The notes beneath the pieces were generated by a model. That model did not search any database. It was not told the origin of the DNA and saw only the letters and a list, made by a program, of their open reading frames with translations. The translations under genes and the position numbers were made by a program. Source: Planctomycetota bacterium (lineage in GTDB: Bacteria > Planctomycetota > UBA8108 > SXIK01). Taken from it: DNA of 64,000 bases. Positions 6,768-22,888 of this stretch are shown here, in pieces (positions within the stretch are counted from its first letter, which is position 1; each line of letters begins with the position of its first letter). The DNA is taken from the NCBI GenBank assembly GCA_965223845.1, contig CBDCXR010000004.1, positions 2,080,001-2,144,000 of the forward strand, given 5' to 3'.

Positions 6768-7631
6768 CTACCGCCGCGAACCCCGGTAGTACCAATACAG
6801 CAAGTGAACCATCCCGTACGACAGAATGTGCCAAAGCGCGTGCCCCTGAAACGCCGCCTCCGGATCGCACCACGGCCCGCCGGTCTTCGAGAGCTCCCGT
6901 GAAATCATCGCGAAGATGAAGAGCGCGAGCCCGAGCCAGAAGGCGACGACGCCCCACACCGTCGAGCCCGTCGTATCCGTTCGCGCCGCGGCGGACGAGC
7001 TCGAGAAGAGCTTGGCCACCGGAGTTCTGAGCATGAAGTAGAGCTCGATCGCACCGCCGGTTCCGGCCCCGATCGGGACGAGGATCTCGCTGTTCACGCC
7101 GAGCGAGTGGAGGGTCGCGAAGAGCGCGGTGAACGTAGGATAGGCAAAGCCGAAGACCCACGGCGACGCAGCATTGTTGATCAGTCTCGCGACGCCGTAA
7201 CACATGACGAAGGACGAGAGGAGGTACATCGACAGGCCGTCGATGTTTCCGCCCCACGCCGTCATGGACGCGTGGTAGAACATGCTCCCCGGTCCCATGA
7301 AGGTGAGGATGAGACAGAGGACCAGCGGATAGACGGTGTCGCTCTTCATCCGCCCGGGGCCGTTCAGGCGACCGCACCTCCGATCGAGGCCGATCGCGAG
7401 CGCCATGCCGGCCGCGAGGATGAGCGACGACAGATTCGACCAGGTATTCGACGGCTGGAGGACACCCGGTTCGCCGATATCGTTCGGATCGAACCTCTCG
7501 CAGTAACAATCGTCGAGATCGACGCAGTCGTTCGCCTCTCCCGGCCACCCGAAGATGACGAAGCCCATGAACACGGTCATGGCGACGCCCCCGAAGATGA
7601 GGCTGATCCACAGCTCCCGAAAGTTCCCCAT
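6768..7631 (-). CDS. Ceramidase-like (CREST superfamily) multi-TM hydrolase
   Basis: CYCE, QPSNTWSNL, GSMFYHAS (SxxxH), conserved Asp in NIDG, and GHALWH (HxxxH) with about 7-8 hydrophobic helices. AGGAGG RBS. Confidence 0.7.
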   Translation of the reverse strand: MGNFRELWISLIFGGVAMTVFMGFVIFGWPGEANDCVDLDDCYCERFDPNDIGEPGVLQPSNTWSNLSSLILAAGMALAIGLDRRCGRLNGPGRMKSDTVYPLVLCLILTFMGPGSMFYHASMTAWGGNIDGLSMYLLSSFVMCYGVARLINNAASPWVFGFAYPTFTALFATLHSLGVNSEILVPIGAGTGGAIELYFMLRTPVAKLFSSSSAAARTDTTGSTVWGVVAFWLGLALFIFAMISRELSKTGGPWCDPEAAFQGHALWHILSYGMVHLLYWYYRGSRR

Positions 7632-7743
7632 CGTTATGCCTCCTGAGTTCGTGCGAAGCCGGACAGCTTGGCGTCAGCGCGTTCGCGTCCGCTCACTTTC
7701 GTTCACTCGGTCTGTTCACCTGGCCCCGGATCGACCCGAATCG

Positions 7744-8562
7744 TCACCCCGCAACGACCGCGATGATCCCCTTCACGACGGCGATGATCGCGCCGATGAG
7801 AAGAATGATTGCCCAGATGAGGGCGAGGATTCCGACGATGATCGCTCCGAGCGCGTCCGTGATGCTCACGAGAAAGATCGGCACGAATCCGTGCAGAAAG
7901 CTGAGGAGAATCACGCCGAGAAACCCGGTCAGAATCAGGAGCACGAGCGTCGGGATGCGGAGATTCCTCTGGTGTGCGAGCACGAGAAAGATCACGAAGG
8001 CGATTCGGAGGATCATGCTCGCCGTGAGGGTCGCGGTCGCTCCTCCGCGATCGAAGAAGCCGTAGATGCAGAAGTACGCGATCGTTCCGAACGGCGCGGA
8101 GAGGAAGAGCCCGACCATGAGTAGGAGGAGCGCCAGCACGGCGAAGATGAGGACGATCGATCCGATCAGGATCCCGAGCGACACGAGCAGCGTGACGATG
8201 CCCTGAACCAGCGGGATCACGGCCCGCGAGCGAGCGTCGGCGCGAAGCGTGAGCTTCGACGTGATCTGAGACACCGCCTGGACGATGAGCAGATAGAGAA
8301 GCAGCCCATCGATGAGCGCAAGGGACGGAATTCCGAACCCCGGTGGCTCCTCGCCCTCGGCAAGCTTGTTGGCGTCGGCCTTCACTTCCTCCGGATCGTC
8401 GACGTCGTGCTCGCGGAGCTGCTCGTCGATCAGCCCTCCGATCCCCGCGCCCTCAACGAGACCGCCGCCGAGCCAGATCGGCGCACCGAGGTCGACGAAG
8501 AGGACGAACACCGCGAGAATGATCGCCACGATGAAAAACGGCGTTCTCTGTCCAGCGAACAT
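7744..8562 (-). CDS. CIS-associated polytopic membrane protein (272 aa)
   Basis: Several long hydrophobic helices with PPGFGIP and PFGTIAY motifs. ATG 8562 lies 11 nt after the upstream stop. Confidence 0.7.
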   Translation of the reverse strand: MFAGQRTPFFIVAIILAVFVLFVDLGAPIWLGGGLVEGAGIGGLIDEQLREHDVDDPEEVKADANKLAEGEEPPGFGIPSLALIDGLLLYLLIVQAVSQITSKLTLRADARSRAVIPLVQGIVTLLVSLGILIGSIVLIFAVLALLLLMVGLFLSAPFGTIAYFCIYGFFDRGGATATLTASMILRIAFVIFLVLAHQRNLRIPTLVLLILTGFLGVILLSFLHGFVPIFLVSITDALGAIIVGILALIWAIILLIGAIIAVVKGIIAVVAG

Positions 8563-8573: not shown

Positions 8574-9059
8574 CTAGTCCTCGATCCCCATGGACAGTAC
8601 GCACTCCTTCGGGGAGCCGACCCCACGGAGGCACTCGAGCTCGAGGAAGCCACCCCGCTCGAGCGCCTGGAGCTCGAGCGGGGCGTCTCCGCCGCGAATC
8701 GTGTCGGTAAACGGCATCGCCCGGTCCCCTCGCCGCGGCCGGTAGTCGATCTTGAGCTCAGCGCCGTTCGGCACGGTCAGTTTCGCGATGCGCGTCTTCT
8801 CATCGCTAATGGCGATCGAAACACTCACCGAGCTTCCCTCGCGGACCGTGATCTTGCCGGCACGGAGTGCGCTCGCGGGACGGACGGTGAGCTCCTCTGC
8901 GGTGATCGCCGGCGAGAGAGCGCCGGCGAACCCACGGAGGGTCTCCTTCCACTCGTCGATGGAGCTCGAGTCCAGCTCGACGTCACCGGAATCTCCGCCG
9001 AAAACGCCGAACGCGAATACGATCGCGAGCACAATCAGGATGACGATGACGAGTTTCAC
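8574..9059 (-). CDS. CIS-associated small protein with N-terminal TM/signal anchor
   Basis: Hydrophobic N-terminus followed by a beta-rich domain. GTG overlaps the TAG of the upstream gene. Confidence 0.65.
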   Translation of the reverse strand: MKLVIVILIVLAIVFAFGVFGGDSGDVELDSSSIDEWKETLRGFAGALSPAITAEELTVRPASALRAGKITVREGSSVSVSIAISDEKTRIAKLTVPNGAELKIDYRPRRGDRAMPFTDTIRGGDAPLELQALERGGFLELECLRGVGSPKECVLSMGIED

Positions 9060-10390
9060 TACTGTCCGATTCTCCGGATCGCGCCGGGATCGATCCGCAT
9101 CTCGAGTTTTTCGCGAAGCTGGGGGTTCGCCTTGATGACTTCGCTCCAGATAACGGGACGAACCGACACCTTCTGCGTCGACACGGTGAGATTGACTTTC
9201 GCGCCGGGAAGAACGCGGGACCTCGCGCGCGGGATCTGATTGAGGACCGTATTCTCCGCGAGCGACTTGTTGTGCTTCTTCGAAACTGTACCGACGGCGA
9301 GACCGACGCGCTGAAGCTGAACGACCGCATCGGCGAGTGATTTCCTACCCAGGTTGGGCATCTGATTGAACACGGTCGCCACGAACGGGCGCGACTTCGC
9401 CGTCGTTCCCGCCGCGTTCCCTACCGTAAGCACGATGTTGAACTTGCCGGCCTTCTTATAGGTGTGCGACACCGAAGCCCCGCTCTTTGGTCCGCTGCCG
9501 TCGCCGAAATCCCACACCCACGAAGTGGGATCACCCTTCGACGTATCGTTGACCGTAATTCCCCAGTTCCCGGGATTGAGATGGCCGCCCCGCGGCACCG
9601 CCGTGAAGGTCGCGGCCAGCGTCTCGGCCGGCGGAGGTTCGACCGCGGGAGCGGTCACCACGATCTCCTTCGTCGCGTCGTTCGTGTCGTCACCGCGGAC
9701 GATCTCGAGCGTCACCGCGTAGGTGCCGGCTTCCGTGAACTCGAACTCCGCGGTTTCTCCCTCGGCGGTGTTCAGTCCGGCGAAGTTCCAGTGCCACTCC
9801 TCCGGCCCGCCGACCGAGTTGTCGGTGAACTTCACCGTGTGTGGCGCGACGCGCTCGCCCTCCGCGGGCTCCATCGTGAAGTCCGCCTCGAGCGGATCGC
9901 CGGAGCAGGTCGCGATTCCGATGATGAGACCGATGACACCGAGGAGGAGGATCACCCCGAGCAGGATCCACGGCCAGATCTTCGGCTTCGGCTTCGGATC
10001 ATCGTCTTCGATGACCGGAACGACCGGAGCTTCGATCGCAAACCGGCACGGCGCACTCTGCCCGGAGTCGTTGTCCGGATCGACCGTCGATGCGACGACG
10101 AGGCGGTACGTGTAATCGCCCGCCGGGGCCTCGGCCGGCGCCGCGAGGAGCACGGTGAACTGCTCGTTTCCATCGACGTCGAACGTGCGAACGTCCTCGC
10201 CTTCGCTCGTCCCTTGAATGCTGAGCCAGCCCGGCTCAGCCGGAGCGTCGATGTCGAGCGACGCCCGCGCGCGGATCTCTCGCCCCGAGACGTTCGTCAC
10301 CGAAAAGGTGCGCTCGCCGCGCCGCTCGTCCCCGGAGAGAGTGACGACCTCGTCGGCCGCCGGGCGGATATCAAAAACGGACATGTTCAC
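9059..10390 (-). CDS. Bitopic membrane protein: N-terminal Ig-like (COG1470-like) domain, TM helix, two PKD domains, PASTA domain
   Basis: TM IWPWILLGVILLLGVIGLIIGIA; PKD motifs VKFTDNS..WHWNF..GTYAVTL and WVWDFGDG..HTYKKAGKFNIVLTV; PASTA MPNLGRKSLADAVVQLQRVGL...VLNQIP...VNLTVS. GGAGG RBS. Confidence 0.75.
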   Translation of the reverse strand: MNMSVFDIRPAADEVVTLSGDERRGERTFSVTNVSGREIRARASLDIDAPAEPGWLSIQGTSEGEDVRTFDVDGNEQFTVLLAAPAEAPAGDYTYRLVVASTVDPDNDSGQSAPCRFAIEAPVVPVIEDDDPKPKPKIWPWILLGVILLLGVIGLIIGIATCSGDPLEADFTMEPAEGERVAPHTVKFTDNSVGGPEEWHWNFAGLNTAEGETAEFEFTEAGTYAVTLEIVRGDDTNDATKEIVVTAPAVEPPPAETLAATFTAVPRGGHLNPGNWGITVNDTSKGDPTSWVWDFGDGSGPKSGASVSHTYKKAGKFNIVLTVGNAAGTTAKSRPFVATVFNQMPNLGRKSLADAVVQLQRVGLAVGTVSKKHNKSLAENTVLNQIPRARSRVLPGAKVNLTVSTQKVSVRPVIWSEVIKANPQLREKLEMRIDPGAIRRIGQ

Positions 10391-10439: not shown

Positions 10440-10955
10440 TCACGTCCCTTGGGTGAATTCGTACGTGACGTAGGCCGGCTTCTCGCGGGCGATGACGCGC
10501 TCGATGAGAGGAAGAAACGCTCTCGCCTCCACGGGAACATCGACCTCGAAGTGAAACGACTTCTTCCCACTCCGCACCTCGAAGCCGGGGACGCCCGTGA
10601 GCGTCGCGAGGAATTCCGCGAGCCCGCGCTTCGTCCCGCGCCATTTACTCAAGCTTGCGCTCCTCGCGATCAATTCTCGAAGATGGCCGAGCCCCGGAGC
10701 CGCCACCGCGCCGAGAGACGGTTCCGATCCGACCGGCGAGAGGACGCGCTGGAGATCGAGCCAATGGGTGAGATAGAGGAGAAAGGCCGGCGGCGCCCGC
10801 CGAGCGTCGAAGTACTCGTCGAAGTTCTCGAGCGCACGTTCGGGATTCGCGTGAAGCGCCTCCATCGCCGCGAGGACGCCGCTCAAGACATTGCCGTCGC
10901 GAACGGAACGCTGAAAGATGCCCGGGAGCAAGCGCCGGATGTCATCAGTCTTCAC
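10440..10955 (-). CDS. Phage tail/baseplate protein (P2 gpI-like)
   Basis: LLPGIFQ, YFDARRAP..FLLYL..WL, KWRGTKRGL..FL and REKPAYV motifs; position after baseplate J. Confidence 0.8.
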   Translation of the reverse strand: MKTDDIRRLLPGIFQRSVRDGNVLSGVLAAMEALHANPERALENFDEYFDARRAPPAFLLYLTHWLDLQRVLSPVGSEPSLGAVAAPGLGHLRELIARSASLSKWRGTKRGLAEFLATLTGVPGFEVRSGKKSFHFEVDVPVEARAFLPLIERVIAREKPAYVTYEFTQGT

Positions 10956-13608
10956 GCGCGGTCTCCTCGTCGTCGCTCACGACATCGATGCGATGCTCTC
11001 CCGAGCAGAAGAGCCACGTCGGAGGTACGGCCACGCGCTGGCTGAACGAGCGCCCGGAGCAGTTCTCGTACGGAGGCTCGTCCGTCGGTTCATCCGTGCG
11101 CTCAGCGCTCTCGCCCGCTCGAGAAAGCTCGATGACACGGCGGCGGATCCCCTCCTCGCCGCCCCCGAGGGCGACGCGTCCGGTCGGATCGACCGCGAGC
11201 GCCCGCACGGGAAAGAACCGACCGGAATCGCGGAGCGGAAGTCCGCACGAGACGTGCGGGGTCGTCCATGCGGCGCCGTCGACTCCGAGGTCGAGCTCGG
11301 CGATCCCGCCGCGAAACGTTCCGGCGAGGACGCGCTTTCCGTCGTCCACGATCGCGAGCTCGTAACAACTTCCGGCGTTCCAGTCGCGACCGACGAGCTC
11401 GAACTTCTCGTCAGAGGCCGCGATGCTCCGGATCTCACGGCGAAAGCAACCTTCGCCTTTGTCCGCGCCAGATTTCGCGAACGCCGCGGCCCAGAGAAAC
11501 GCGCGCCCGCCCACCGGCTGGACGAGGAGCGAGTGAATGTTTTTTCCCCGAAGTCCGAAGTACTCGAAACTTTCGCCCCCGTTCTCGGAGAGATGAACTC
11601 CGCCGAGATTCTCTGCCGCGACGGCGATCCAATCCGTTCCCTTCGCGTCGCGCCAAACGCGGACCGCCCACATCCCGAGATCCGGATCGGACGGGAGTGC
11701 GATCACCGGCCGCGGCGTCACCGGTCCGCGCCGCCAGTCGTCCTCGAAGACGATCTCCTGCAGTCCCTTACTGGTTGCAAGGAGGAGGCGCGGGAGGCTT
11801 CCTCGCGATGTCCACGCGAGATCGTTCACTCGGTGCCCGAGCTGCGACACCCGGTCCCAGCTTTCGCCGCAGTTCTCCGACACGTAGACGGCCGAGCGTT
11901 CACCTTTCCGCTCCGTGGCGACCGCGACGATCCCCGCTTCCTCGGGGTGGACCGCGACGTGTGCGACTTCTTCGTCGGCGAATCGTCCCGCCGGTTCCCA
12001 GCCCTCGCCGTCGTTCATGGAGCGAAAGAGGATCGGTCCGCTTCCGGCGAACCACGTCCGCGACTGAAACTCGTCCGCGACGATGCAGCTCACGTCTTCG
12101 CTCGGCGCTTCGTCGACGTGGAGGGAGATCTCCTCGACCCGCAAGACTCGAGCGTCGCTCAGAACGAGGTCGTAGATGCGCGAGACGTGGAGCGGCGTAC
12201 CGAACCGCCAGCCCTGGTAGCCCTCGCTCGGGAACGGATTGATCGCGGCGTGAAGCCGTTCGAGAACACGCTCCTCGACCGCGCGGCGATCCGCCTCGCG
12301 GTGCGCGACGACGCGCGCCCGAACGCTCACTTTCTTGTAACGAGCCCAGTCGACGGAACAGACGGTTCCGAGCGGGCTCCGGCGGTCGAGATCACGCGCA
12401 ACCGCCTGCAGGGTGCTCTCCTTCTTCACGCCTTCGACATCTTCGACGCTCACTCTTCGCGCGGCGTCGTCATCGCCGATTGTCGGCACGATGAGCACTT
12501 TCACCGCGCCGAGCCGCCCGTGTCGCCAGACATCGGATTCCGCGTAGGCCTTCGCCCGTGCGACTTCACCCGAGAGGCGCTTCGCAAGGAGTTCGTAGTC
12601 GTCCGCGGTGACGGCGCGCTCGAGGCTCCGCAGTTCCTGTGGTCCGCGGACGAGCGCGTTCTCGAGGCTTTCGGGAGCCCGACCGCCGGTGCCCCGATCG
12701 ACGTTCGTCACCTTCACGCCGGGGATCTGATCCTTGAGCGCGGTCAGAGTCCCTTCGGCGACGTTGCCGTCGACGCCGCCGCCGCAGCGATACCACACGC
12801 GAATCTCGCGACCGGATTTCGGGACCTCCGCGAGCGCGACCGGACGCGCCGCCTCGCCCCCGTCGTGGCCGTCGACGCGATCGACGGCGGGTGCGAACAC
12901 GATCCGTCCGTCGACGCGATGCGCCACAAAGACGTGCCGCTCGTCTCCGAGCTCTGCGAAGTGACCCTCCTCGCGTTCCCGCCAGATACGAAACAGCTTC
13001 TCGCCGTAGCGGATCGCGGGGACGCGTTCGTCGTCCGCCTCTTGCGGATCCATCTCGACCGCGACGGTCAGGTCGAAATCCGATCCCGTCGGAGCGACAA
13101 TCGGCGGACGCGTGACCTCGAAGGTGAGTCCGGGCTCTCCCGTCGCAATCCCGAGAAGCTCTCCACGAACGAGCTCGCAGTGGTGCGCGACGACTTCGAC
13201 GGAGGCCGCCCCCGGCTCGATCGCGGCTTCGTCCGCGGTCGTAAAGATCGGCGCGGGACGATCCCCGCTCGCGCGCGCGACCGTCACTCGTGTTCCGAGC
13301 GGAATCTCGATCCGCCGGTCCGTTTTGCCGCCGGACCGCGAGAATACGAGCCGCGCCGTCGCGGCCGTCGGCGCCTGAAGCTGGACGCCGATGAGCCGGA
13401 GGAACTCGACGTAGGCCTTCTCGGGAATCCGATTCAGCCGATAGATCATCACATCCGTCAAGTACGCGAAAGCCTCGAGCAGAATTCGACCCGGGTCACC
13501 GGCGGACTGATCGTTCCAACTGGGACAGGCGCGCTTCATCTCACGGAGCGCGTCGGCGACGAGGTCGTCGTAGGTGCGGTCGTCAAGGTTCGGCGACGGA
13601 AGCGACAT
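10945..13608 (-). CDS. CIS baseplate assembly protein (gpJ/Afp11-like) with inserted BNR beta-propeller
   Basis: LPSPNLDDRTYDDLV, WNDQSAGDPG..LLEAFAY, YRCGGG..GNV, RAVTADDYE; Asp-box repeats SMNDGEGW, SENCGESW, SENGGESF; C-terminal LFCSGEH. Confidence 0.88.
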   Translation of the reverse strand: MSLPSPNLDDRTYDDLVADALREMKRACPSWNDQSAGDPGRILLEAFAYLTDVMIYRLNRIPEKAYVEFLRLIGVQLQAPTAATARLVFSRSGGKTDRRIEIPLGTRVTVARASGDRPAPIFTTADEAAIEPGAASVEVVAHHCELVRGELLGIATGEPGLTFEVTRPPIVAPTGSDFDLTVAVEMDPQEADDERVPAIRYGEKLFRIWREREEGHFAELGDERHVFVAHRVDGRIVFAPAVDRVDGHDGGEAARPVALAEVPKSGREIRVWYRCGGGVDGNVAEGTLTALKDQIPGVKVTNVDRGTGGRAPESLENALVRGPQELRSLERAVTADDYELLAKRLSGEVARAKAYAESDVWRHGRLGAVKVLIVPTIGDDDAARRVSVEDVEGVKKESTLQAVARDLDRRSPLGTVCSVDWARYKKVSVRARVVAHREADRRAVEERVLERLHAAINPFPSEGYQGWRFGTPLHVSRIYDLVLSDARVLRVEEISLHVDEAPSEDVSCIVADEFQSRTWFAGSGPILFRSMNDGEGWEPAGRFADEEVAHVAVHPEEAGIVAVATERKGERSAVYVSENCGESWDRVSQLGHRVNDLAWTSRGSLPRLLLATSKGLQEIVFEDDWRRGPVTPRPVIALPSDPDLGMWAVRVWRDAKGTDWIAVAAENLGGVHLSENGGESFEYFGLRGKNIHSLLVQPVGGRAFLWAAAFAKSGADKGEGCFRREIRSIAASDEKFELVGRDWNAGSCYELAIVDDGKRVLAGTFRGGIAELDLGVDGAAWTTPHVSCGLPLRDSGRFFPVRALAVDPTGRVALGGGEEGIRRRVIELSRAGESAERTDEPTDEPPYENCSGRSFSQRVAVPPTWLFCSGEHRIDVVSDDEETARED

Positions 13609-14072
13609 CAGGATTCTCCGCCGAGATGGAGCGGAAGGAGGATGCGATCGCGCTCACGCGACGGACGCACGCGATACTCGAGTTCGACATCGAGGCGTTC
13701 CGGAATCTCCGGGTGCGGCGCGGCGTCGACGCGGAGGACCTCCGCCCGCGGCTCCCAGCGCTCGACCGCGCTTCGGACATAGTGGATCGCGAGGCCGGCG
13801 GTCGTCGCATCGTTCGGCGAAAACACGAGACGTCGGAGATCACACCCGTACTCGGGCCGCATCACGCGCTCTCCAGGATTCGTGGTGAGGAGAATGAGGA
13901 GCGCCTGACGCACCGACGCCGCTTCGCTCACCATCGCAATTCCGCCGGTCGGTGAGAGGACGGCGCCGACGACCGGACGCTCGCGCTCGGTGCCGTCCAC
14001 GACCGAAGTCGCACCGTCCGACACGATCATCGGATGCTCGAATCGCCAAGCTCGGTAGCGGGCCTCCGGCAT
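13608..14072 (-). CDS. GPW/gp25 baseplate protein (Afp9-like)
   Basis: VRQALLILLTTNPGERVMRPEYGCDL...VERWEPR. Confidence 0.92.
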   Translation of the reverse strand: MPEARYRAWRFEHPMIVSDGATSVVDGTERERPVVGAVLSPTGGIAMVSEAASVRQALLILLTTNPGERVMRPEYGCDLRRLVFSPNDATTAGLAIHYVRSAVERWEPRAEVLRVDAAPHPEIPERLDVELEYRVRPSRERDRILLPLHLGGES

Positions 14073-14414: not shown

Positions 14415-14428
14415 TCGTCGGCCTCCTC

Positions 14429-16929: not shown

Positions 16930-18398
16930 GGAATCCCTCGCTGCTCGAGGTCGATGCGACGGGCTCGCGCTGCGTCTCGCGATGCTGTTTCAGCAGCGCC
17001 GGCGTGCTCGGTCTCCACTGCGTGCGGATCGGCGAGGAGACTCGGCCAGCGGTCGAGCTGCGGATTCGGGTGCACGGTGGGATTGGCGAACGTCGACGGG
17101 ACGTCGACCGACGCGAGGAATCGCCCGAGATCGAATCGGACGGCGTTCCGATCTTTTCGCCGAACGCCTTCCCGCGAGAAGCCGGTCCGCGAATCGATCG
17201 ACGCATCCTCACGTTCGCGTGCTCGACGCTCGGCCGTCTCATCGCCAGTCGAAGGGCGCGAGAGCGAGCCCTCGGCTGCGACCGGTCTCGAGCTTGGGTC
17301 GATCGGGGGTCGAGAGCGCTCGTCTCGGCGGGACGATATCGCTGAGCGCCGCGGCGGAGGCGTCGATGGGACTCGGGCGCGCGTTGGACGCGCGCCGTCG
17401 ACGCGGTCCTCCTTCACCGGGGCCGGATCAGATCGCGGGTCCGATCGACGAGCCGCTGATCGGGCTCTCCCGGCGACCGGAGACGGCGCGCTCGGCGCCG
17501 CCGGAGATCGGGCGAACCGGAACTCCTCTACGGGTTGAGACAACGCCGCTTCGCTGCCCGAAGGGATAACGACATCGAGCGGCGTTTCGCCGCGAAGCTG
17601 CCGGCCCGGCCCGGCATGCGGTTCGCGGTCGGCGATGTGTCCCTCCGTGCGCCGCGCACGTTCTGGAGGTCGCCGAGACTCGGAAGCGCCGGCGCTGCTG
17701 GGTGTAGATCTCGCCTCGTGCGCTCGCGGTTTTCCCGACCGCTGACGCGGGCGGGGACCATCGCCCGCTTCCGCGCGAATCGCGCCCGCGGGCGGTTCCG
17801 TCCGGCTCCGCGGAGCTCGCGCGGCCTCCTCCGTCCGCGACGTCGCGATTCGTGCGCCAGCAGACTCCTGCGTCGACGGGGCGACGGCGCGCTTGGGATC
17901 GGGATTCGGTGCGCGGTGATCGCGCGGCGACGCGTCTCGCGGCCGATCGAGCTTCGACGAGCGCGGAGTCTCCGAGACGTCACTCGGAACGGGCTTCCTC
18001 TCTCGGCCGCGCGTCTCGCTGCGTTCGAGCTGTCGAACGGAGCCGCGACTCGACTTAGAACGCTTCCGGCGCGAATCGCGTGGCGGCTTCGCGACGTCAC
18101 TCGGGTGATCGACCGCCGATTCGGATGCGCGATGCGACTCGAACTCCGGGTCCGCCTCGGTCTCCTCGGCGGCCGTCGCCACCAGCTCCAGCCATTCGCT
18201 CGGCGGCTCATCGCCGACGAGTCGTTTCCACGCTTCGGGGACGGGAGACCTCTCGCCCGCTCGCTCGTCGCCCGGTGAGGACTCGCCTCGACCCGATCGA
18301 GATGGCGGCGGGCCGACGCGCGCCGCCACACGGCTCAAGAGCGCGGCGAACGACGCGAGCGCCGATTGGATCCATCGCCTGAGCGGTAGCGCTCTCAC
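16917..18398 (-). CDS. CIS-associated low-complexity protein (493 aa, R/P/S/A/E-rich)
   Basis: GTG overlaps the tube TGA and the stop overlaps the next ATG. Ordered-looking ends (PPSEWLELV; RWPSL...RRIDLEQRG..W) flank a disordered middle. Confidence 0.6.
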   Translation of the reverse strand: MRALPLRRWIQSALASFAALLSRVAARVGPPPSRSGRGESSPGDERAGERSPVPEAWKRLVGDEPPSEWLELVATAAEETEADPEFESHRASESAVDHPSDVAKPPRDSRRKRSKSSRGSVRQLERSETRGRERKPVPSDVSETPRSSKLDRPRDASPRDHRAPNPDPKRAVAPSTQESAGARIATSRTEEAARAPRSRTEPPAGAIRAEAGDGPRPRQRSGKPRAHEARSTPSSAGASESRRPPERARRTEGHIADREPHAGPGRQLRGETPLDVVIPSGSEAALSQPVEEFRFARSPAAPSAPSPVAGRARSAARRSDPRSDPAPVKEDRVDGARPTRARVPSTPPPRRSAISSRRDERSRPPIDPSSRPVAAEGSLSRPSTGDETAERRAREREDASIDSRTGFSREGVRRKDRNAVRFDLGRFLASVDVPSTFANPTVHPNPQLDRWPSLLADPHAVETEHAGAAETASRDAARARRIDLEQRGIPWSE

Positions 18399-18835
18399 AA
18401 TCGCTGGACTCCCTCGTGCGTGAGAGTGAGCGATTCGATCGCGACGGAATTGCCCTGCGCGTCGAGCACGGCGCCTCGCCATTCCTCAGGCCATGCTGCG
18501 TCGAGGTTCCAGCGCGCCACGGGGGTAGTGCCGTCCTCGTCGAGAAGGACGATCGAGCACGCCTTCCGCTCGATGATCCCCTTCGACGTCTTGTCGAACC
18601 ACTCGGCGAGCTGCGTCGAACTCGTCACCCCGTAGCGAAGCGTCACGCCGAAGTACTCCACGCGACCGGGAAGCGAACGCACCTGCTGCCCGGCGCCCGC
18701 CTCGCGATAGAGGATCTTCTCGATTCGTGCGCCGAGGCCCTCGGCGCGCGCGAAGCTGGCTTCGGTCACGCCGGAGATCTCGAGCTTGAAGTTGAAATCT
18801 CGATAAGGGTCGGTTCTCGTGCCGGTTTCGGCCAT
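18395..18835 (-). CDS. Tail tube protein (T4 gp19/Afp1-like)
   Basis: DPYRDFNFKLEI, GL..IEKILYREAG, LPGRVEY..VTLRYG, W..AWP..W.G..LDA..VAIESLTLTHEG. Confidence 0.93.
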   Translation of the reverse strand: MAETGTRTDPYRDFNFKLEISGVTEASFARAEGLGARIEKILYREAGAGQQVRSLPGRVEYFGVTLRYGVTSSTQLAEWFDKTSKGIIERKACSIVLLDEDGTTPVARWNLDAAWPEEWRGAVLDAQGNSVAIESLTLTHEGVQRL

Positions 18836-18843
18836 GGTTTACC

Positions 18844-20079
18844 TCACTCTGCTTCGACTTCCGTGCCACCTTCGTACTGCCCGATCCGAAACACGACGAA
18901 CTCGGCCGGACGGACCGGTGCGATGCCGATCTTGATCGTCACCTTGCCCGCGACGATCTCTTCGTGAGGATTCGTCTCCTCATCGCACTGAACGAAGAAC
19001 GCTTCCTCCGGCGTCGATCCTTTGATCGCACCGTCGCGCCACAGCCGAAGAAGGAAGGCGGTCACGTCGCGTTCGATCGCGTTCCAGAGATCTTCGTCGT
19101 TCGGCTCGAAGACCACCCAGCGCGTTCCGAGAGCGATCGACTCCTCGACCATCGCGAAGAGCCGGCGGACACTCAGATACCGCCACTCACTGCTGGCCGG
19201 CGCGATCGTTCGTGCACCCCACACGCGGATCCCTTCCCGCGGGAAAAACCGGATGCAGTTGACGCCCGCGGGATTGAGCGTGTCCTGTTCCTGATCGGTG
19301 ACGCGGTAGGTGACTCCGACAGCTCCCTCGACCGCGGTATTCGCGGGAGCTTTGTGAACGCCGCGTACGGCGTCGGTGCGCGCCCAGACACCGGCGATGT
19401 GGCCCGACGGAGGGACCTCGACCGTCTGCTTCGGATTGAGAGGGTTTCGGATGCGGATCCACGGGAAGTAGAACGCGCCGTAGCCGCCGTCCTGCTGCGC
19501 CGGGCGCAACCCGCCGCCGCCGCCGACCGGTGTCCGCTTGCCGCCGCCCTCTTTCTCATCCTTGTCCTTCGTGTCCTTCGGCGGTCCTTCCGTCCCGACG
19601 GTTTTTAGCCGATCGATCTCCTTCGGATCGGTGACGTTCGGAGCGTCGAGGATCGCCACGCGGTCCTTCAGCTTGCTGCAGTGATTGAGGACGGCGCTGT
19701 AGTCGGCGAAGCTCGTGGCGCCCGGCGCCGCGACGATGGCGACTTCATCGACCTGCTCGAGTGCGGCGACGCCCTCGCGCGGCTTCCCCACGATCGAACC
19801 GCCTTCGCCGACGTTGACGACGTAGCAGCGAGAGCCGCCGTTGGAGAAGAACCCGTGGACCGCACTCGCGAGATCGGTGAGGTTCGTTCGGTTGCCGACG
19901 TACTCCTTGAGAAACTGCGACCAGTTGTTGATCGCGATCGGCTGGTGAACGTGCCGCGTCGGATCGGGAGCGACCCCCACGAAGCCGGGCGTGCTGGTTC
20001 CGAGCGCCGTGATCGGTCGCGAGCCGGTCGACTCCTCGACGATGTAAACGCCTGGGGTGCCGTAGTCGGTCATGCTCAA
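18844..20079 (-). CDS. Contractile tail sheath protein (Afp2/3/4-like)
   Basis: YGTPGVYIVE, FFSNGGSRCYVV, DRVAILD, FYFPW, PPSGHIAG..ARTD..RGVHKAPAN, WGART, WVVFEPN, AFFVQCDEETN, APVRPAEFV. Start may be ATG 20073. Confidence 0.95.
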   Translation of the reverse strand: MSMTDYGTPGVYIVEESTGSRPITALGTSTPGFVGVAPDPTRHVHQPIAINNWSQFLKEYVGNRTNLTDLASAVHGFFSNGGSRCYVVNVGEGGSIVGKPREGVAALEQVDEVAIVAAPGATSFADYSAVLNHCSKLKDRVAILDAPNVTDPKEIDRLKTVGTEGPPKDTKDKDEKEGGGKRTPVGGGGGLRPAQQDGGYGAFYFPWIRIRNPLNPKQTVEVPPSGHIAGVWARTDAVRGVHKAPANTAVEGAVGVTYRVTDQEQDTLNPAGVNCIRFFPREGIRVWGARTIAPASSEWRYLSVRRLFAMVEESIALGTRWVVFEPNDEDLWNAIERDVTAFLLRLWRDGAIKGSTPEEAFFVQCDEETNPHEEIVAGKVTIKIGIAPVRPAEFVVFRIGQYEGGTEVEAE

Positions 20080-20870
20080 TCCTCCGTAGGTTCAAAGCGA
20101 ACGACGAGGGGAGCCCCGGGGCTCATTCCCTGATCGGTTTCCACTGCGAGTTCCCGGTTGCGCGCCCGGATGACGAGGCGCTTTACGGGTGGGTGGTGGG
20201 GAACTCCCGCAAAGCGAAACTCTCCCCGGCGATCCGTGACGGTCGATAGACGAAGGGCGGGAAGGGACACCTGCGCACGCGAGAGCGGGATCTCGCTCGG
20301 GCCCTTCGCCCCGGCGCGTTTCTTGAGCGGAGCGACGACGCGTCCCCGGAGCTCGCCGATCGGCGTGGGGTGAAAGACCAGCGGGTGTTCGACGATGCGC
20401 ACCTCGCGCGCGACGCGCTCTCGCCGGACGAGCGCGCGCAACAGGAACGCGGGTCGCGGCGCGAGGCCGAGCTCCGGCCAGAGCTCCCGCGGAATCTGCA
20501 GATCGAGCTCGGCCGGCGTCGGTTCGGACTCTGAAGACGGCCGGAGAGTGGGGGGAGATTCGAGCGCGCTGAACACGAGCTCGGAGAGCATCGCGTGTGC
20601 TCGGTGCGGCGACGCGTCCCACGCGGAGACGAGAAACCGAACGGCGAACTGCATGGGGGTGTCGGCTCGGCCACGCGGAAGCGGGGCGGGCTCGAACGCC
20701 AGCAGATACACTGAGATGGCGCTACTCTCCGTCGACGCTTCTCCGACGATCTCCGCATTCGGATGCACCCTCCGGATCCACTCGTGGAGCTGCTCGGTCA
20801 CGAACTCGATCTCGGTGGTCGGCGCGACGTCCGGTGCGTTCGCTCGTCGACTCCTCCTCTGGGCCGTCAC
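20076..20870 (-). CDS. Pvc16/DUF4255-like cap protein with C-terminal carboxypeptidase-regulatory-like domain
   Basis: ISVYLL..EP, RFLVSAW, W..LG..PRPAF; C-terminal LSRAQVSLP...TDRRGEFRFAGVP. GTG 20870 overlaps the patatin TGA. Immediately precedes the sheath gene. Confidence 0.65.
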   Translation of the reverse strand: MTAQRRSRRANAPDVAPTTEIEFVTEQLHEWIRRVHPNAEIVGEASTESSAISVYLLAFEPAPLPRGRADTPMQFAVRFLVSAWDASPHRAHAMLSELVFSALESPPTLRPSSESEPTPAELDLQIPRELWPELGLAPRPAFLLRALVRRERVAREVRIVEHPLVFHPTPIGELRGRVVAPLKKRAGAKGPSEIPLSRAQVSLPALRLSTVTDRRGEFRFAGVPHHPPVKRLVIRARNRELAVETDQGMSPGAPLVVRFEPTED

Positions 20871-22888
20871 TCGAGGGCCTCCAGAACTTCGGCCACCGAG
20901 CTCGCGTTCTCGGCCTCGAGCTGCCGCTCCATCTCGTTTCGTGCGGAATCCGAGATCATCCAACCGAGCGGCAAGGGGACGTCGCTCGATCGGAGCCGAA
21001 ATCGAATGAACTTGCCGTTCGCGGCGAGTACGGCGGTCTTGATCGCAGCCTCGGCGTAGTGTCCGCGCGCATCGCGCGTGCTCAGCATGGTGCTCAGGGG
21101 TGCCGTCGCCTCTTTGAGGAACTCTCCTTCGTCGACCTCACTGGCCGTCGGCACGCCCTCGTCGGGTTGTTCGGGATCGTTGCTGATCACGATCACGATC
21201 GGAACGATCCGGGCGGAGAGACCGCGCGCGTTCGCCCCTCTCTGCACTTCCTGTAGAACCTCGAGGAGAGTCGCAGCCCCCGAGTTCTCGAAGTAGCCGC
21301 CGTCGACGATGAAGAGCGAGTCCGGTGCGTCGATCCGGCCCGCCGGGCTGACGTACGGAAATCGCGTGCTCATGTCGACCGCCGTACTCAGAGGTACGGC
21401 ACGGCGAAGGACGGTCTGCAGCTCGAACACGTCCTCGAAGCCGCTGCTGAGCGAGAGGTTGCTCATGACCATCCGCTTTCCCGTGGCGACGTTCGTTCCG
21501 TTGAGAAAGAGCGCCGGTACGGCGAGAGCCTCGTCGGACTGCCAGAGGTCGCCGAAGCGCCGCGCGAAACGGTCGTTCTTCTGCTCGCGTTCCCAAGCGG
21601 ATTCCCACGCTTTCTCTAGCGAGCGCGCGCGATCGAAGTAGCCGACAGGAAAGGGGAGGAAGCGCTGGAACAAGTCCTGGAACAGCATCGCCGCGATCGT
21701 CGGGGAGAGGAAATCGCGCGCGAGGATCTCTCCCGCGGCCCGCCGCGCGTCGTTTGCGTCGTCGGCGACCAGCGCAGCGAACACCGCGCCGCCGAGGCTC
21801 CCCCCCGAGACTCCGCTGACCGCGAACGTGTGCCGGCCGAACCGCCGCGGTCGGGACCGACTCTTGTCCTCGAGCTCGCCGAGGACGATCGCCGTCCAGT
21901 ACGCCGCCCGAACCCCGCCGCCCGCGGCGGCGACAAGGAACACGGGAATCTCTTTTCCGTTCGCCTCGCCGTCGCGCGCGGTCAGCCATCGCCCGGCAAA
22001 CTCCTCGGTCGAATTCCCGCGGCGTGCCGCGGGTCGGGACCGGAGCTCGCGGACGTGGTGATTGTCGTTCCAGAAGCTGAAGAGGATGGCGGCGACGAGA
22101 ATCACGCTGAGAAGTCGGGTACAGCGCCAAATCCGCGCGAGATAGACGAGAAAGCTCCCGATCGGGAGCCAGCTCGACATCGCGATGAAGAGGATGCTCG
22201 CACTTCCGATCCATGGCGCGACGCCAACCGACGCAAACGTGAAGAGAACGAACCAAAAGAGCGAGAGCCCAAAGGAGATCAGGAGGAGCACCTTCGTCGG
22301 CCGTCCTAGTTGAACGACCCCCTCCACGGGCTCGCGAATCGGCTCCCAGCCGAACACGTTCTTCAGAACGCGCGTGCGGAAGTAGACGACGAAAAAGAAC
22401 CCGACCGCGAGGAGAACGCACACGACGCCCATGATATTCAGAACGACTCCGGCGCCGCGGGGATCGGAGCTCCAATACGCGGCGGCGGAGCGAAAAAGCC
22501 CGATACCGCACGCAAGGAGTACGAGGCAGCCGAGAATCCGCGGAACGTGCGCCTTGAATCGGGCGGTCCACTTGGGGCTGATCCCTTTATGCTCCTCCTC
22601 GTGGGGGAGGTAGAACATGAACCGCGCCCAGTACCACGCGTTGAACGCGAGAACGATCGCGGCGATGAGGAAGACGACCCACTGGAACGTCGCCCAGAGA
22701 AATCGCCCCTCCGTCTCGCCGAGTCCGCGGAGCGCCTCCTGGACTTGACCGACGAAAACGAGCGAGATCGTCACGAAGAGGACGACGATCCCGCTGAATC
22801 GGCACAGCTTCAGCACGCCGACCAGATCGGACAGCCAATCGAGGGCGGCGCGAATCCATCGCGTCACCGTCGCTACTAAAGACCGCAT
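20867..22888 (-). CDS. Multi-TM patatin-like phospholipase (673 aa)
   Basis: About 7-8 N-terminal hydrophobic helices; oxyanion AGGGVRAA, nucleophile GVSGG, catalytic DGGYFENSG. GGAGG RBS before ATG 22888. Confidence 0.8.
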   Translation of the reverse strand: MRSLVATVTRWIRAALDWLSDLVGVLKLCRFSGIVVLFVTISLVFVGQVQEALRGLGETEGRFLWATFQWVVFLIAAIVLAFNAWYWARFMFYLPHEEEHKGISPKWTARFKAHVPRILGCLVLLACGIGLFRSAAAYWSSDPRGAGVVLNIMGVVCVLLAVGFFFVVYFRTRVLKNVFGWEPIREPVEGVVQLGRPTKVLLLISFGLSLFWFVLFTFASVGVAPWIGSASILFIAMSSWLPIGSFLVYLARIWRCTRLLSVILVAAILFSFWNDNHHVRELRSRPAARRGNSTEEFAGRWLTARDGEANGKEIPVFLVAAAGGGVRAAYWTAIVLGELEDKSRSRPRRFGRHTFAVSGVSGGSLGGAVFAALVADDANDARRAAGEILARDFLSPTIAAMLFQDLFQRFLPFPVGYFDRARSLEKAWESAWEREQKNDRFARRFGDLWQSDEALAVPALFLNGTNVATGKRMVMSNLSLSSGFEDVFELQTVLRRAVPLSTAVDMSTRFPYVSPAGRIDAPDSLFIVDGGYFENSGAATLLEVLQEVQRGANARGLSARIVPIVIVISNDPEQPDEGVPTASEVDEGEFLKEATAPLSTMLSTRDARGHYAEAAIKTAVLAANGKFIRFRLRSSDVPLPLGWMISDSARNEMERQLEAENASSVAEVLEALE

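What the first reader, a model, noticed from the sequence alone, without database searches (positions are those of the whole stretch)
6768..22888. Compact, apparently membrane-associated contractile injection system bracketed by two lipid hydrolases
Seen: 15 co-oriented genes, most with overlapping or abutting start/stop codons. Order is patatin, Pvc16-like, sheath, tube, low-complexity protein, tube initiator, VgrG, PAAR-like, gp25, baseplate J, tail-I, TM-PKD-PKD-PASTA, TM protein, polytopic membrane protein, ceramidase-like. A candidate promoter precedes it and a terminator follows it. There are no capsid, terminase, portal, integrase or TssJLM genes. Known: the core matches Afp/PVC-type eCIS, and membrane-linked CIS are described in Streptomyces and Anabaena. 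Inference: this is a producer-membrane-docked CIS in a probable planctomycete, whose cassette includes enzymes acting on phospholipids and amide-linked lipids. I do not know of a characterised system with this composition.
Basis: partly seen in the sequence, partly recalled or inferred. Interest (0 to 1): 0.85.

Follow-up and report, generated by a model that had tools for sequence, protein, structure and literature searches.

The report
Membrane-linked contractile injection system cluster
A planctomycete gene cluster encodes a phage-tail-like injection machine of a widespread but unstudied type that always travels with three membrane proteins, while the two lipid-cutting enzymes at its ends are local additions rather than standard parts.

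Summary
Fifteen co-oriented, tightly packed genes lie on the minus strand (6768-22888), and Pfam confirms the contractile injection system (CIS) core, the patatin and the ceramidase-like gene.

The three membrane proteins are a hallmark of a whole CIS lineage. The lineage has a short sheath, a baseplate-J protein fused to a beta-propeller, and no AAA+ ATPase. At least 581 baseplate-J relatives were found in many phyla and on plasmids.

- All three membrane proteins occur in 56 of 60 loci with enough downstream DNA.
- The 6-TM protein occurs in exactly the 8 of 401 planctomycete genomes that carry this baseplate J.
- A complex model places the cytoplasmic N-domain of the single-pass protein on the propeller: score 0.63, best control 0.00.

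The lipid hydrolases are not conserved. Patatin was found in 0 of 86 related loci. The ceramidase-like gene was found in 1 of 86, although that case also sits beside the CIS.

The closest solved relative is the Streptomyces cytoplasmic CIS, whose membrane adaptor CisA is an analogue, not a detectable homologue. Verdict: a new variant of a known kind, and interesting.

The parts
20867..22888 (-). Membrane-anchored patatin-like phospholipase. About 7-8 predicted TM helices in the first 271 aa, then the patatin domain. GxSxG, GGGxR and DGG motifs are visible in the translation. Specific to this locus, not part of the conserved system.
   Evidence: Pfam PF01734 E 5.5e-10; translation; hydropathy scan; 0 of 86 related loci.
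20076..20801 (-). Pvc16/Afp16-like tail terminator (cap) with a C-terminal CarboxypepD_reg-like domain. An alternative start is the GTG at 20870, which overlaps the patatin stop.
   Evidence: Weak Pvc16_N in the window; 9 of 14 orthologues hit Pvc16_N and 14 of 14 hit CarboxypepD_reg; orthologues are about 228 aa; junction sequence.
18844..20073 (-). Sheath, short form (409 aa), without the inserted domain of class IId sheaths.
   Evidence: Pfam; PDB best hits 8bky/9gtp at 1.4e-102, matched in two stretches; tree.
18395..18835 (-). Inner tube protein (gp19/Afp1/5-like).
   Evidence: PF06841 E 4e-37; TIGR02241.
16917..18401 (-). Low-complexity (R/A/S/P-rich) protein with a conserved C-terminal motif, WPxL...LDxEQRGxxW(N/S). 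Candidate tape-measure or tube-lumen protein.
   Evidence: In every locus that holds both the tube and the initiator, an ORF fills the gap between them. Most are 300-650 aa (range 157-1202), and nearly all end with the motif, at or just inside the initiator gene.
16174..16929 (-). Tube initiator (Afp7-like).
   Evidence: PF19266 CIS_tube E 1.3e-10; 69 of 80 loci.
14429..16177 (-). VgrG-like spike, one contiguous gene (gp27 plus gp5 OB and beta-helix repeats).
   Evidence: PF05954, PF04717; NF033848.
14073..14414 (-). Conserved 113-aa protein at the spike-tip position ('PAAR-like'; not confirmed).
   Evidence: 75 of 80 loci; no Pfam hit in the window copy or in 15 orthologues; Atlas lead only.
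13608..14072 (-). gp25/TssE-like baseplate wedge protein.
   Evidence: PF04965 E 1.4e-24.
10945..13608 (-). Baseplate J (Afp11/Cis11-like) fused to a C-terminal beta-propeller of about 380 aa with Asp-box-like motifs. The fusion is the hallmark of the lineage.
   Evidence: Pfam and TIGR02243; only PDB hit is 9gtp_1K, covering query residues 214-498; AF2 model of residues 490-887 has pLDDT 87.9 and matches propeller folds at Foldseek E 5e-11; full-length homologues in 80 of 80 loci.
10440..10955 (-). Small tail-I / Cis12-like baseplate protein (171 aa).
   Evidence: PF09684, TIGR02242; weak match to 9gtp_E at E 0.058; 80 of 80 loci.
9059..10384 (-). Bitopic membrane protein. It has a cytoplasmic Ig-like N-domain of about 115 aa, a TM helix (140-158), then two PKD domains and one PASTA domain outside. 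Proposed link between baseplate and membrane, and possibly a sensor.
   Evidence: Pfam; alignment A3; N-domain HMM in 58 of 60 loci; complex model. Topology is inferred from lysines before the TM helix and acidic residues after it.
8574..9059 (-). Small protein (161 aa) with an N-terminal TM helix, conserved with the system.
   Evidence: Local HMM in 58 of 60 loci.
7744..8562 (-). Six-TM membrane protein of an unnamed family. Motifs: LRKPFF, PFGTxAY, AQQRFLQNKGL, FLHGxVP, SITD.
   Evidence: Alignment A2, 34-48% identity across phyla; 1188 clusters, none named, no Pfam; found in exactly the 8 of 401 genomes that carry the propeller baseplate J; AF2 pLDDT 90.
6768..7631 (-). Ceramidase-like (PF05875) polytopic hydrolase, 112 nt after the 6-TM gene. 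An accessory seen in only two planctomycete loci.
   Evidence: Pfam E 2.3e-10, above the cut-off; single copy in G000 and in G178, next to the CIS in both.
6639..6681 (-). Terminator-like hairpin (13+5 bp) followed by U's, between two convergent genes.
   Evidence: Fold of 6600-6775 on the minus strand.
23181..23210 (-). Sigma-70-like promoter match upstream of the patatin gene. Not above chance.
   Evidence: 1 found, 1.0 expected.

Best explanation
The cluster encodes a complete, ATPase-less contractile injection system of a distinct and widespread lineage that sits next to class IId.

The structural parts are a cap, a short sheath, a tube, a disordered tape-measure-like protein, a tube initiator, a VgrG spike with a tip protein, gp25, baseplate J and a small tail-I protein. 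The defining additions are a beta-propeller fused to baseplate J and a dedicated three-protein membrane module.

Proposed mechanism (inferred):
1. The particle assembles in the cytoplasm.
2. [quoted passage not shown]
3. That holds or recruits the baseplate at the inner face of the producer's cytoplasmic membrane, beside the small TM protein and the 6-TM protein.
4. The variable ectodomain (here PKD-PKD-PASTA) reports on the periplasm or cell wall and licenses firing through the membrane.

With no sheath-recycling ATPase, each particle would fire once. Whether firing exports material to neighbours or kills the producer is not resolved.

The patatin gene is a local addition. The ceramidase-like gene is a rare accessory of planctomycete loci. 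Both are integral membrane enzymes, so they are not tube cargo.
For: Shown:
- CIS core by Pfam and NCBIfam.
- Nearest solved relatives are the Streptomyces CIS sheath (1.4e-102) and Cis11 (1.3e-53).
- In a quick ML tree of 23 sheaths the window falls in a 16-row clade (SH-aLRT 99) made up only of loci of this lineage. The Streptomyces and Deinococcus IId references lie outside it.
- The lineage is widespread. At least 581 baseplate-J relatives were found. The best 80 all have the roughly 880-aa form and come from about nine phyla. It also occurs on plasmids of Deinococcus sp. AJ005, Paracoccus sp. MC1862 and Rhodovulum sulfidophilum.
- The membrane trio is conserved. Of 60 loci with at least 5 kb after tail-I, the bitopic N-domain is in 58, the small TM protein in 58, the 6-TM protein in 57, and all three in 56.
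- Presence and absence match. The 6-TM family was found in 8 of 401 planctomycete genomes, and these are exactly the 8 with full-length propeller baseplate J.
- Neither the trio, the propeller nor the PAAR-like gene was detected in the two IId reference loci. Those loci do carry a DUF4255 protein and a roughly 650-710-aa ATP-binding protein.
- No dedicated ATPase. None was seen in the cluster or its flanks. A Streptomyces Cis15-position protein used as query finds only AAA-domain-level matches more than 0.9 Mb away in this genome.

Model-level support:
- The complex of baseplate J 490-887, tail-I and the bitopic N-domain 1-128 scored 0.63 (runs 0.03, 0.67, 0.63). The best of 3 controls scored 0.00.
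- That mark was reached by 116 of 157 solved complexes and 2 of 215 mismatched pairs. These counts hold only roughly here, because my own alignments and three chains were used.
- The runs agree in at least 64% of contacts, and the partner's pLDDT is at least 81.
- The contacts are propeller residues 593-800 with N-domain residues 42-109.

Precedent: membrane proteins encoded beside CIS genes mediate membrane association. CisA does so in Streptomyces (PMC12237407, sections 3, 7 and 9 read). A 6-TM putative anchor does so in haloarchaea (PMC11566945, passages read).
Against: - No localisation, expression or particle data exist for any member of the lineage.
- One of the three complex runs scored 0.03, and the alignments were unpaired.
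- The 6-TM gene lies on either strand, 2-6 kb from tail-I. It is upstream of the sheath in Paracoccus and on another contig in G195. It is linked to the cluster, but not always in the same operon.
- Its fold gives no function. Foldseek finds nothing at E<=1e-3. The only VIA-align matches that stand out are CDF/ZnT membrane domains at Z 15.6 and 14.9, which is marginal for helical bundles.
- No effector was identified.
- PASTA and PKD are general binding modules, so the sensor role is an inference.
- Planctomycetes are diderm. An outward shot would also have to cross the periplasm and outer membrane, and no such parts were found.
Confidence: 0.6

Rival explanations
1. Streptomyces-like mode. 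The particles float free in the cytoplasm. The bitopic protein recruits them to the membrane only briefly under stress, and firing kills the producer (regulated cell death or lysis). In this genome the membrane-bound patatin and the ceramidase-like enzyme would add to membrane breakdown.
For: The closest solved relative is the cytoplasmic CIS of Streptomyces. CisA is encoded at the same place, just after the baseplate genes, with the same N-in/C-out topology and a proposed sensing ectodomain. It is predicted to bind Cis11, the baseplate-J homologue (PMC12237407, sections 3, 7, 9). Related Chloroflexota and Deinococcota CIS are also unattached in the cytoplasm (PMC12998442, section 23). There are no tail fibres and no recycling ATPase.
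Against: The adaptor's N-part here is a folded domain with a confident predicted interface on a dedicated propeller, not a long disordered region as in CisA. That fits stable docking better. Two further conserved membrane proteins have no counterpart in the IId loci examined. The hydrolases are absent from nearly all related loci.
Confidence: 0.25
2. One reading: patatin and ceramidase are working parts of the cassette, a CIS specialised for acting on phospholipids and amide-linked lipids.
For: Both genes are on the same strand as the cluster. Patatin's stop is 65 nt (or minus 4 nt) from the next gene, with no terminator-like site between them. A terminator-like hairpin follows only the ceramidase gene. 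PF05875 is uncommon in the phylum: 29 of 401 genomes at E<=1e-5, 18 of them over the cut-off. In both genomes that have PF05875 together with this CIS lineage (G000 and G178), the single copy lies within 3 kb of the cluster. Catalytic motifs of both enzymes look intact in the translation.
Against: Patatin is in 0 of 86 related loci. Ceramidase is in 1 of 86, and there it is the C-terminal part of an ORF of about 1,100 aa transcribed divergently at the other end of the cluster. Six of the 8 planctomycete carriers have no PF05875 hit at all. Both proteins are polytopic membrane proteins, so they are unlikely to be loaded into a tube. No transcript data are available.
Confidence: 0.15
3. A classical extracellular CIS. 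Particles are released by lysis and bind target cells. The membrane proteins serve lysis, release or immunity rather than docking.
For: The core gene set and the Pvc16-like cap are those of eCIS. The loci occur on plasmids and are spread patchily across phyla, as eCIS loci are.
Against: No tail-fibre gene, no Afp12-size baseplate protein and no Afp15 ATPase were found. [quoted passage not shown] Its conserved part is cytoplasmic and is predicted to bind the baseplate.
Confidence: 0.08
4. A decayed prophage tail or an R-type tailocin.
For: All core domains are phage-tail domains.
Against: There are no head, packaging, integrase, fibre or lysis genes. The same gene order is kept, with intact frames, in 80 loci from many phyla. 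The sheath clusters with CIS sheaths, far from pyocin and T4 sheaths.
Confidence: 0.02

Closest known systems
Streptomyces coelicolor / S. venezuelae cytoplasmic CIS (class IId) with its membrane adaptor CisA (SCO4242)
   Same: Closest solved sheath and baseplate J. Single afp11, contiguous VgrG, small Cis12-like protein, no fibres. A bitopic N-in/C-out membrane protein is encoded just after the baseplate genes, with a putative sensing ectodomain and a predicted contact to the baseplate-J homologue (PMC12237407).
   Different: The sheath here lacks the inserted domain (409 aa against 534-541 aa). Baseplate J carries an extra beta-propeller. There is no AAA+ ATPase and no second tube gene. The adaptor's cytoplasmic part is a folded Ig-like domain of about 115 aa, not about 285 disordered residues, and its ectodomain is PKD/PASTA rather than solute-binding-like. 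There is no tblastn similarity between the window's membrane proteins and the S. clavuligerus IId locus. Two further membrane proteins are conserved here. The sheath clade is separate.
Haloarchaeal T6SS-like CIS (Halogeometricum borinquense) with the putative anchor Hbor_38620
   Same: A CIS lineage whose membrane-bound mode correlates with a conserved six-TM protein encoded beside the cluster (PMC11566945, passages).
   Different: The archaeal protein has a cytoplasmic domain of about 150 residues. The 6-TM protein here has only short loops. The archaeal cluster has two cis11 genes plus cis12 and cis13. Its sheath is more distant (38.5% identity; outside the clade). Homology between the two 6-TM proteins was not tested.
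Anabaena thylakoid-anchored CIS (tCIS)
   Same: The baseplate is extended to reach a membrane inside the producer (as described in PMC12237407, section 3).
   Different: In tCIS the anchoring is by baseplate extensions themselves. Here a soluble propeller is predicted to bind a separate membrane protein. Sheath similarity is lower (7b5h, 3e-55).
Afp / PVC extracellular CIS (subtype Ia)
   Same: Shared core domains: sheath, tube, initiator, VgrG, gp25, baseplate J, Pvc16-type cap.
   Different: There is one sheath gene instead of three, and no Afp12-size protein, Afp13 fibre or Afp15 ATPase. The tape-measure-like gene lies between the tube and the initiator. The Afp-like sheaths are the most distant rows of the tree.

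Membership tests
Contractile injection systems (Afp/PVC-like superfamily) | Sheath, inner tube, tube initiator, VgrG spike, gp25 and baseplate J encoded together | tested here: met
   Pfam hits for all six; synteny in 80 loci.
Contractile injection systems (Afp/PVC-like superfamily) | Afp16/Pvc16-type tail terminator (DUF4255/Pvc16_N) | tested here: met
   Weak in the window (E 0.0047, below cut-off). Nine of 14 orthologues hit it, 5 at or above the cut-off.
Contractile injection systems (Afp/PVC-like superfamily) | Afp15-type AAA+ ATPase (one of the eight subunit types present in more than 85% of loci in Chen 2019, PMC6899500) | tested here: not met
   No AAA family among the 43 window proteins scanned. 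None is conserved in related loci. The own genome gives only AAA-domain matches elsewhere.
Contractile injection systems (Afp/PVC-like superfamily) | Tail fibres (Afp13) for binding a target from outside | tested here: not met
   No fibre family hit. The post-baseplate position is taken by a membrane protein.
eCIS subtype IId (Chen et al. 2019) | Single afp11, contiguous afp8, afp12 and afp13 largely absent | tested here: met
   Gene content compared with PMC6899500, section 10.
eCIS subtype IId (Chen et al. 2019) | Falls inside the IId clade on a sheath or baseplate tree | tested here: inconclusive
   In a quick tree with only two IId references, the window's 16-row clade (SH-aLRT 99) excludes both. 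The forks joining the groups are weak or open. The reference trees of dbeCIS and eCIStem were not reproduced.
eCIS subtype IId (Chen et al. 2019) | afp10 (PAAR-motif protein) present | tested here: inconclusive
   A conserved 113-aa gene lies after VgrG. It has no PAAR Pfam hit in the window copy or in 15 orthologues. There is an Atlas lead only.
CisA family (Streptomyces CIS membrane adaptor) | Sequence homology to CisA / SCO4242 | tested here: not met
   tblastn of the window's bitopic protein against the S. clavuligerus IId locus, which includes the gene at the CisA position, gave no match at E<=1e-3. No profile comparison was made.
CisA family (Streptomyces CIS membrane adaptor) | Bitopic, N-terminus in the cytoplasm, encoded just after the baseplate genes | tested here: met
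   One TM helix at 140-158; position after tail-I in 58 of 60 loci. Topology is inferred from charge distribution only.
Canonical T6SS (subtypes i-iii) | TssJ/L/M membrane complex and ClpV | tested here: not met
   No such Pfam family among the 43 window proteins. Not searched in the rest of the genome.
Patatin-like phospholipase (PF01734) | Domain match above the curated cut-off, with GxSxG and DG(G) motifs | tested here: met
   40.2 bits against a cut-off of 27.7. GVSGG and DGG were read in the translation. That these are the catalytic motifs is from my recall of the family.
Ceramidase / CREST-type membrane hydrolase (PF05875) | Domain match above the curated cut-off | tested here: met
   40.7 bits against a cut-off of 32.5. 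Activity and substrate are not testable here.

The most novel reading that the evidence does not exclude
This is a third, widespread way of coupling a phage-tail machine to the producer's membrane. Beta-propellers on the baseplate plug into a modular sensor-adaptor: an Ig-like N-domain, a TM helix, and swappable PASTA, PKD or other ectodomains. The adaptor works with a dedicated 6-TM protein and a small TM protein, which together form the site, and perhaps the gate, through which an ATPase-less, single-shot CIS fires when the envelope signals damage. On this reading the lineage has been largely overlooked by eCIS surveys because it has too few recognisable core genes. It is present in cultured Micromonospora, Nitrococcus, Nitrosomonas and Rhodovulum.
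Probability: 0.4. Interest if true: 0.8.

Novelty: new variant of a known kind. Interest (0 to 1): 0.62.

Why it matters
How CIS particles that have neither tail fibres nor a T6SS membrane complex find and fire through a membrane is an open question. It has only recently been opened, by CisA in Streptomyces and by a putative anchor in haloarchaea.

This locus points to a large, cross-phylum lineage with three useful properties:
- The membrane partners are encoded with the machine and are strictly co-inherited with it.
- A specific, testable interface between baseplate and adaptor is predicted.
- The adaptor's outer domain is swapped between hosts.

The lineage occurs in cultured, non-pathogenic bacteria and on small plasmids, so imaging and genetics can test the proposal directly.

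It also shows that surveys demanding ten core genes or an ATPase can miss whole CIS lineages. Rhodovulum sulfidophilum DSM 1374 is scored as lacking eCIS in the Geller et al. supplementary table, yet its plasmid carries this system.

Tried and rejected
- **Island test.** The two same-family genomes (G216, G338) have no orthologue of the patatin or the ceramidase. Only the neighbouring MBL-fold gene has one, at 63% identity, with no surrounding synteny. Whether the block was inserted could not be told.
- **Second patatin.** I first took the ORF at 51514-53853 for a paralogue of the cluster's patatin. BLASTP shows no similarity (E 0.99), so I dropped the idea.
- **Expression.** No RNA holder was listed for 13300-23200, and the four holders are contigs from one study.
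- **Fold of the 6-TM protein.** Foldseek against PDB found nothing at E<=1e-3. VIA-align found CDF/ZnT membrane domains at Z 15.6 and 14.9, with ferritin-like bundles below. This is too marginal to name a family. I saw no CDF-type HxxxD pairs in the alignment (by eye).
- **PADLOC.** The only hit is the PASTA region against PD-T4-6, a domain-level match.
- **PDB sequence searches.** Searches with the PAAR-like and Pvc16-like proteins found nothing useful.
- **Earlier findings of this scan.** Nothing by place, sequence or words.
- **Careful ML tree.** It did not finish in 300 s, so the quick tree is reported. Nine of the 21 related loci I picked dropped out of the tree because my script's ORF-matching condition did not retrieve their sheath.
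- **Literature.** No paper in the library holds both 'contractile injection' and 'PASTA domain'. A search for 'contractile injection', 'membrane anchor', 'baseplate', 'transmembrane' and 'lineage' gave nothing on this lineage (listing only). A search for 'contractile injection system', 'Planctomycetes' and 'eCIS' found one paper, on sheath evolution (listing only).
- **Supplements.** The Chen 2019 supplements (dbeCIS locus lists) were not opened, so whether dbeCIS holds members of this lineage is open. In the Geller supplements, files 13-15 were not searched.

Full report
**Observation**

The window is planctomycete DNA, with PSCyt1/2, PSD1 and DUF1501 genes. It is about 65% G+C. On the minus strand between 22888 and 6768 lie fifteen ORFs with the high third-position G+C of real genes.

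It finds patatin, a weak Pvc16_N with a CarboxypepD_reg domain, sheath, gp19-type tube, CIS_tube initiator, VgrG (GPD plus base_V), gp25, Baseplate_J, Tail_P2_I, a protein with two PKD domains and one PASTA domain, and Ceramidase. NCBIfam agrees on the core.

Four genes have no family: the low-complexity gene, the 'PAAR-like' gene, a small TM protein and a polytopic protein.

With the starts I judge most likely, neighbouring genes overlap by 1-13 nt or lie 0-14 nt apart. The exceptions are 65 nt after patatin, 55 nt before the bitopic gene and 112 nt before the ceramidase gene.

The promoter match is what chance gives. The terminator is real as a structure. No head, packaging, integrase, T6SS membrane-complex or AAA+ family appears among the 43 proteins scanned in and around the cluster.

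**Relatives within the phylum**

I searched 400 other planctomycete genomes with the 887-aa baseplate J. Seven had full-length homologues, in three families. Thirty-five more had only partial matches to longer proteins of another CIS type.

In the seven loci the core from the Pvc16-like gene to tail-I is syntenic:
- Each has a single-pass membrane protein straight after tail-I. Pfam finds PASTA or PKD ectodomains in six of the seven.
- Six have the polytopic protein within 2-6 kb, on either strand.
- None has the patatin gene.
- One (G178) has a ceramidase-like domain.

**Relatives elsewhere**

A scan of one genome per species with a baseplate-J alignment found at least 581 relatives. The best 80 loci come from Actinomycetota (many Micromonospora), Gamma- and Betaproteobacteria (Nitrococcus, Ectothiorhodospira, Nitrosomonas), Desulfobacterota, Chloroflexota, Acidobacteriota, Verrucomicrobiota and others. 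All have the roughly 880-aa form. Four of the 80 are the same contigs as four of the seven above, so the two sets hold 83 distinct loci.

tblastn with the window's proteins found these genes in the 80 loci. Many loci are cut short by contig ends:

| Gene | Loci of 80 |
|---|---|
| baseplate J | 80 |
| tail-I | 80 |
| gp25 | 77 |
| PAAR-like | 75 |
| VgrG | 72 |
| tube initiator | 69 |
| polytopic protein | 65 |
| tube | 64 |
| sheath | 62 |
| Pvc16-like | 47 |
| N-part of the bitopic protein | 33 |
| patatin | 0 |
| ceramidase | 0 |

Local HMMs sharpen the count. Among the 60 loci (window included) with at least 5 kb after tail-I, the bitopic N-domain is in 58, the small TM protein in 58, the 6-TM protein in 57, and all three in 56.

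Three plasmids also carry the lineage with its membrane genes: Deinococcus sp. AJ005 p96k, Paracoccus sp. MC1862 and Rhodovulum sulfidophilum DSM 1374. They carry neither patatin nor ceramidase. That gives 86 related loci in all.

**The membrane module**

The bitopic protein has four parts:
- a conserved N-domain of about 115 aa with an Ig-like pattern (FxVxNxS...W...GxYxxRLxVxS..PxE);
- a PWW-type junction;
- one TM helix;
- a C-terminal part that differs between hosts (PASTA, PKD or others).

One Ktedonobacteraceae locus has four tandem copies.

The 6-TM protein is 34-48% identical between phyla, about as conserved as the sheath, with several invariant polar residues. Its family has 1188 clusters in the large protein collection. 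All are 'hypothetical' and none has a Pfam domain.

In the 401-genome planctomycete sample the 6-TM family occurs in exactly the eight genomes that have the propeller-bearing baseplate J, and in no other. In G195 it lies on a different contig.

Its AF2 model is confident (pLDDT 90) but matches no solved fold clearly.

**Baseplate propeller and docking**

Residues 490-887 of baseplate J fold as a beta-propeller (pLDDT 87.9). The nearest folds are GH74 and WD40 propellers at E 5e-11. The Streptomyces Cis11 chain (652 aa) matches only residues 214-498. The two IId loci I examined match only up to about residue 526. So the propeller is an addition of this lineage.

I ran a complex prediction with the propeller region, tail-I and the bitopic N-domain as partner:
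- It scored 0.63 (runs 0.03, 0.67, 0.63). The best of three controls scored 0.00.
- That mark was reached by 116 of 157 solved complexes and 2 of 215 mismatched pairs. These counts hold only roughly here.
- The runs agree in at least 64% of contacts, and the partner's pLDDT is at least 81.
- All confident contacts are between the propeller (593-800) and N-domain residues 42-109.

This supports binding but does not show it.

**The low-complexity gene**

In every locus that holds both the tube and the initiator, one ORF fills the space between them. Most are 300-650 aa, with a range of 157 to 1202. The ORF is rich in P, A, R, G and S. In nearly all loci it ends with WPxLP...LDxEQRGxxW(N/S), at or just inside the initiator gene.

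So it is a real, conserved gene with a fast-evolving body. Its position and conserved C-terminus fit a tape-measure or tube-lumen protein. That assignment is inferred.

**Placement among known systems**

Against solved structures, the sheath is closest to the Streptomyces CIS:

| Solved system | PDB entry | E-value |
|---|---|---|
| Streptomyces CIS | 8bky/9gtp | 1.4e-102 |
| Streptomyces CIS | 8bl4/9gts | 8e-100 |
| unnamed sheath | 9ezm | 2.6e-95 |
| tCIS | 7b5h | 3e-55 |
| Pvc2 | 6j0b | 9e-53 |
| Afp2 | 6rao | 4e-50 |
| AlgoCIS | 7adz | 1.4e-47 |

Gene content fits the Chen et al. description of subtype IId (single afp11, contiguous afp8, no afp12/13; PMC6899500, section 10), except for the missing Afp15 ATPase. 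A Streptomyces Cis15-position protein finds only AAA-domain-level matches elsewhere in this genome.

In a quick ML tree of 23 sheaths, the window sits in a 16-row clade (SH-aLRT 99) that holds only loci of this lineage. The S. clavuligerus and D. taeanensis IId references, a Treponema and a Nostoc plasmid, the H. borinquense sheath and the Afp-like sheaths all lie outside it. This is the quick method with few references, and 9 picked loci dropped out.

The IId loci carry a DUF4255 protein plus a roughly 650-710-aa ATP-binding protein, a 535-541-aa sheath and two tube genes. They lack the trio.

**Prior literature**

Membrane partners of fibre-less CIS are a recent topic:
- CisA is a bitopic protein encoded after the baseplate genes. 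It is needed for contraction and is predicted to bind Cis11 (PMC12237407, sections 3, 7 and 9 read).
- A six-TM protein correlates with the membrane-bound mode in haloarchaea (PMC11566945, passages).
- Related Chloroflexota and Deinococcota CIS float in the cytoplasm (PMC12998442, section 23).

I found no paper on this lineage.

The Geller et al. pipeline required ten core genes and an Afp12, 13, 14 or 16 (PMC8213781, methods passage). Its supplementary table scores R. sulfidophilum DSM 1374 as eCIS-negative, though its plasmid carries the system. I did not check that the IMG record used there includes the plasmid.

**The lipid hydrolases**

The patatin protein has about 7-8 TM helices before the catalytic domain. 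It has no counterpart in any related locus, and the two same-family genomes have no orthologue.

PF05875 is uncommon in the phylum: 29 of 401 genomes at E<=1e-5, 18 of them over the cut-off. It gave 0 hits in 14 control genomes. Only two of the eight carriers of this CIS have it, each as a single copy, and in both it lies beside the cluster.

In G178 it is the C-terminal part of an ORF of about 1,100 aa that is coding throughout and transcribed divergently from the cap gene. Two independent adjacencies are unlikely by chance. So I rate the ceramidase-like gene a real but rare accessory of planctomycete loci, and the patatin gene a local neighbour or recent recruit. Both are integral membrane proteins and so are not cargo.

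**Verdict**

The feature it put in the title, the two lipid hydrolases, is the least general part.

What is new is the lineage itself: an ATPase-less CIS with a propeller on its baseplate and a strictly co-inherited three-protein membrane module.

No direct evidence exists for localisation, firing direction, cargo or biological role.

Noticed in passing
window 51514-53853 (+): A second ORF with a patatin domain (E 7.5e-21). It is unrelated in sequence to the cluster's patatin (BLASTP E 0.99).
   Followed up: yes
window 4748-6604 (+), residues ~528-617: The C-terminal 90 or so residues of this 618-aa protein, which has no Pfam hit, match at 40-56% identity in 150 or more open frames in each of G000, G216 and G338. 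This is a massively multiplied C-terminal module.
   Followed up: no
G000:C4:7781189-7781563 (L002): A weak second match to the sheath C-terminal region (E 2.7e-9, 30% identity) inside an open frame of about 750-830 aa with no Pfam hit.
   Followed up: partly
35 planctomycete genomes (e.g. G145:C7, G321:C33, G276:C69): A different CIS type, with baseplate-J proteins of about 1030-1160 aa that match only parts of the query, is more common in the phylum than the lineage studied here.
   Followed up: no
L008 12238-17179 (G195:C11): In this related locus the bitopic gene is followed by two genes with MAP3K_TRAF_bd/TPR-S domains, one of them fused to DUF4231/SLATT. Domains of this kind are, by my recall, known from conflict systems.
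   Followed up: no
L009 16208-19684 (G178:C25): The ceramidase-like domain here is the C-terminal part of a long ORF (about 1,100 aa, third-position G+C 0.83-0.98 from about 16500 on). The ORF has many hydrophobic stretches and an HExxH-like motif.
   Followed up: partly
L023 13694-17819: Four tandem paralogues of the bitopic adaptor in one Ktedonobacteraceae locus, each with the same N-domain and TM position.
   Followed up: no
L025 3532-7140 (= G258:C285): The tape-measure-like gene is 1202 aa here, against 300-650 aa in most other loci. If it sets tail length, this locus would build a much longer particle.
   Followed up: no
Geller et al. 2021 supplementary file 10 (PMC8213781): Rhodovulum sulfidophilum DSM 1374 is listed with ecis = 0, although its plasmid NZ_CP015419.1 carries a full locus of this lineage.
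   Followed up: partly
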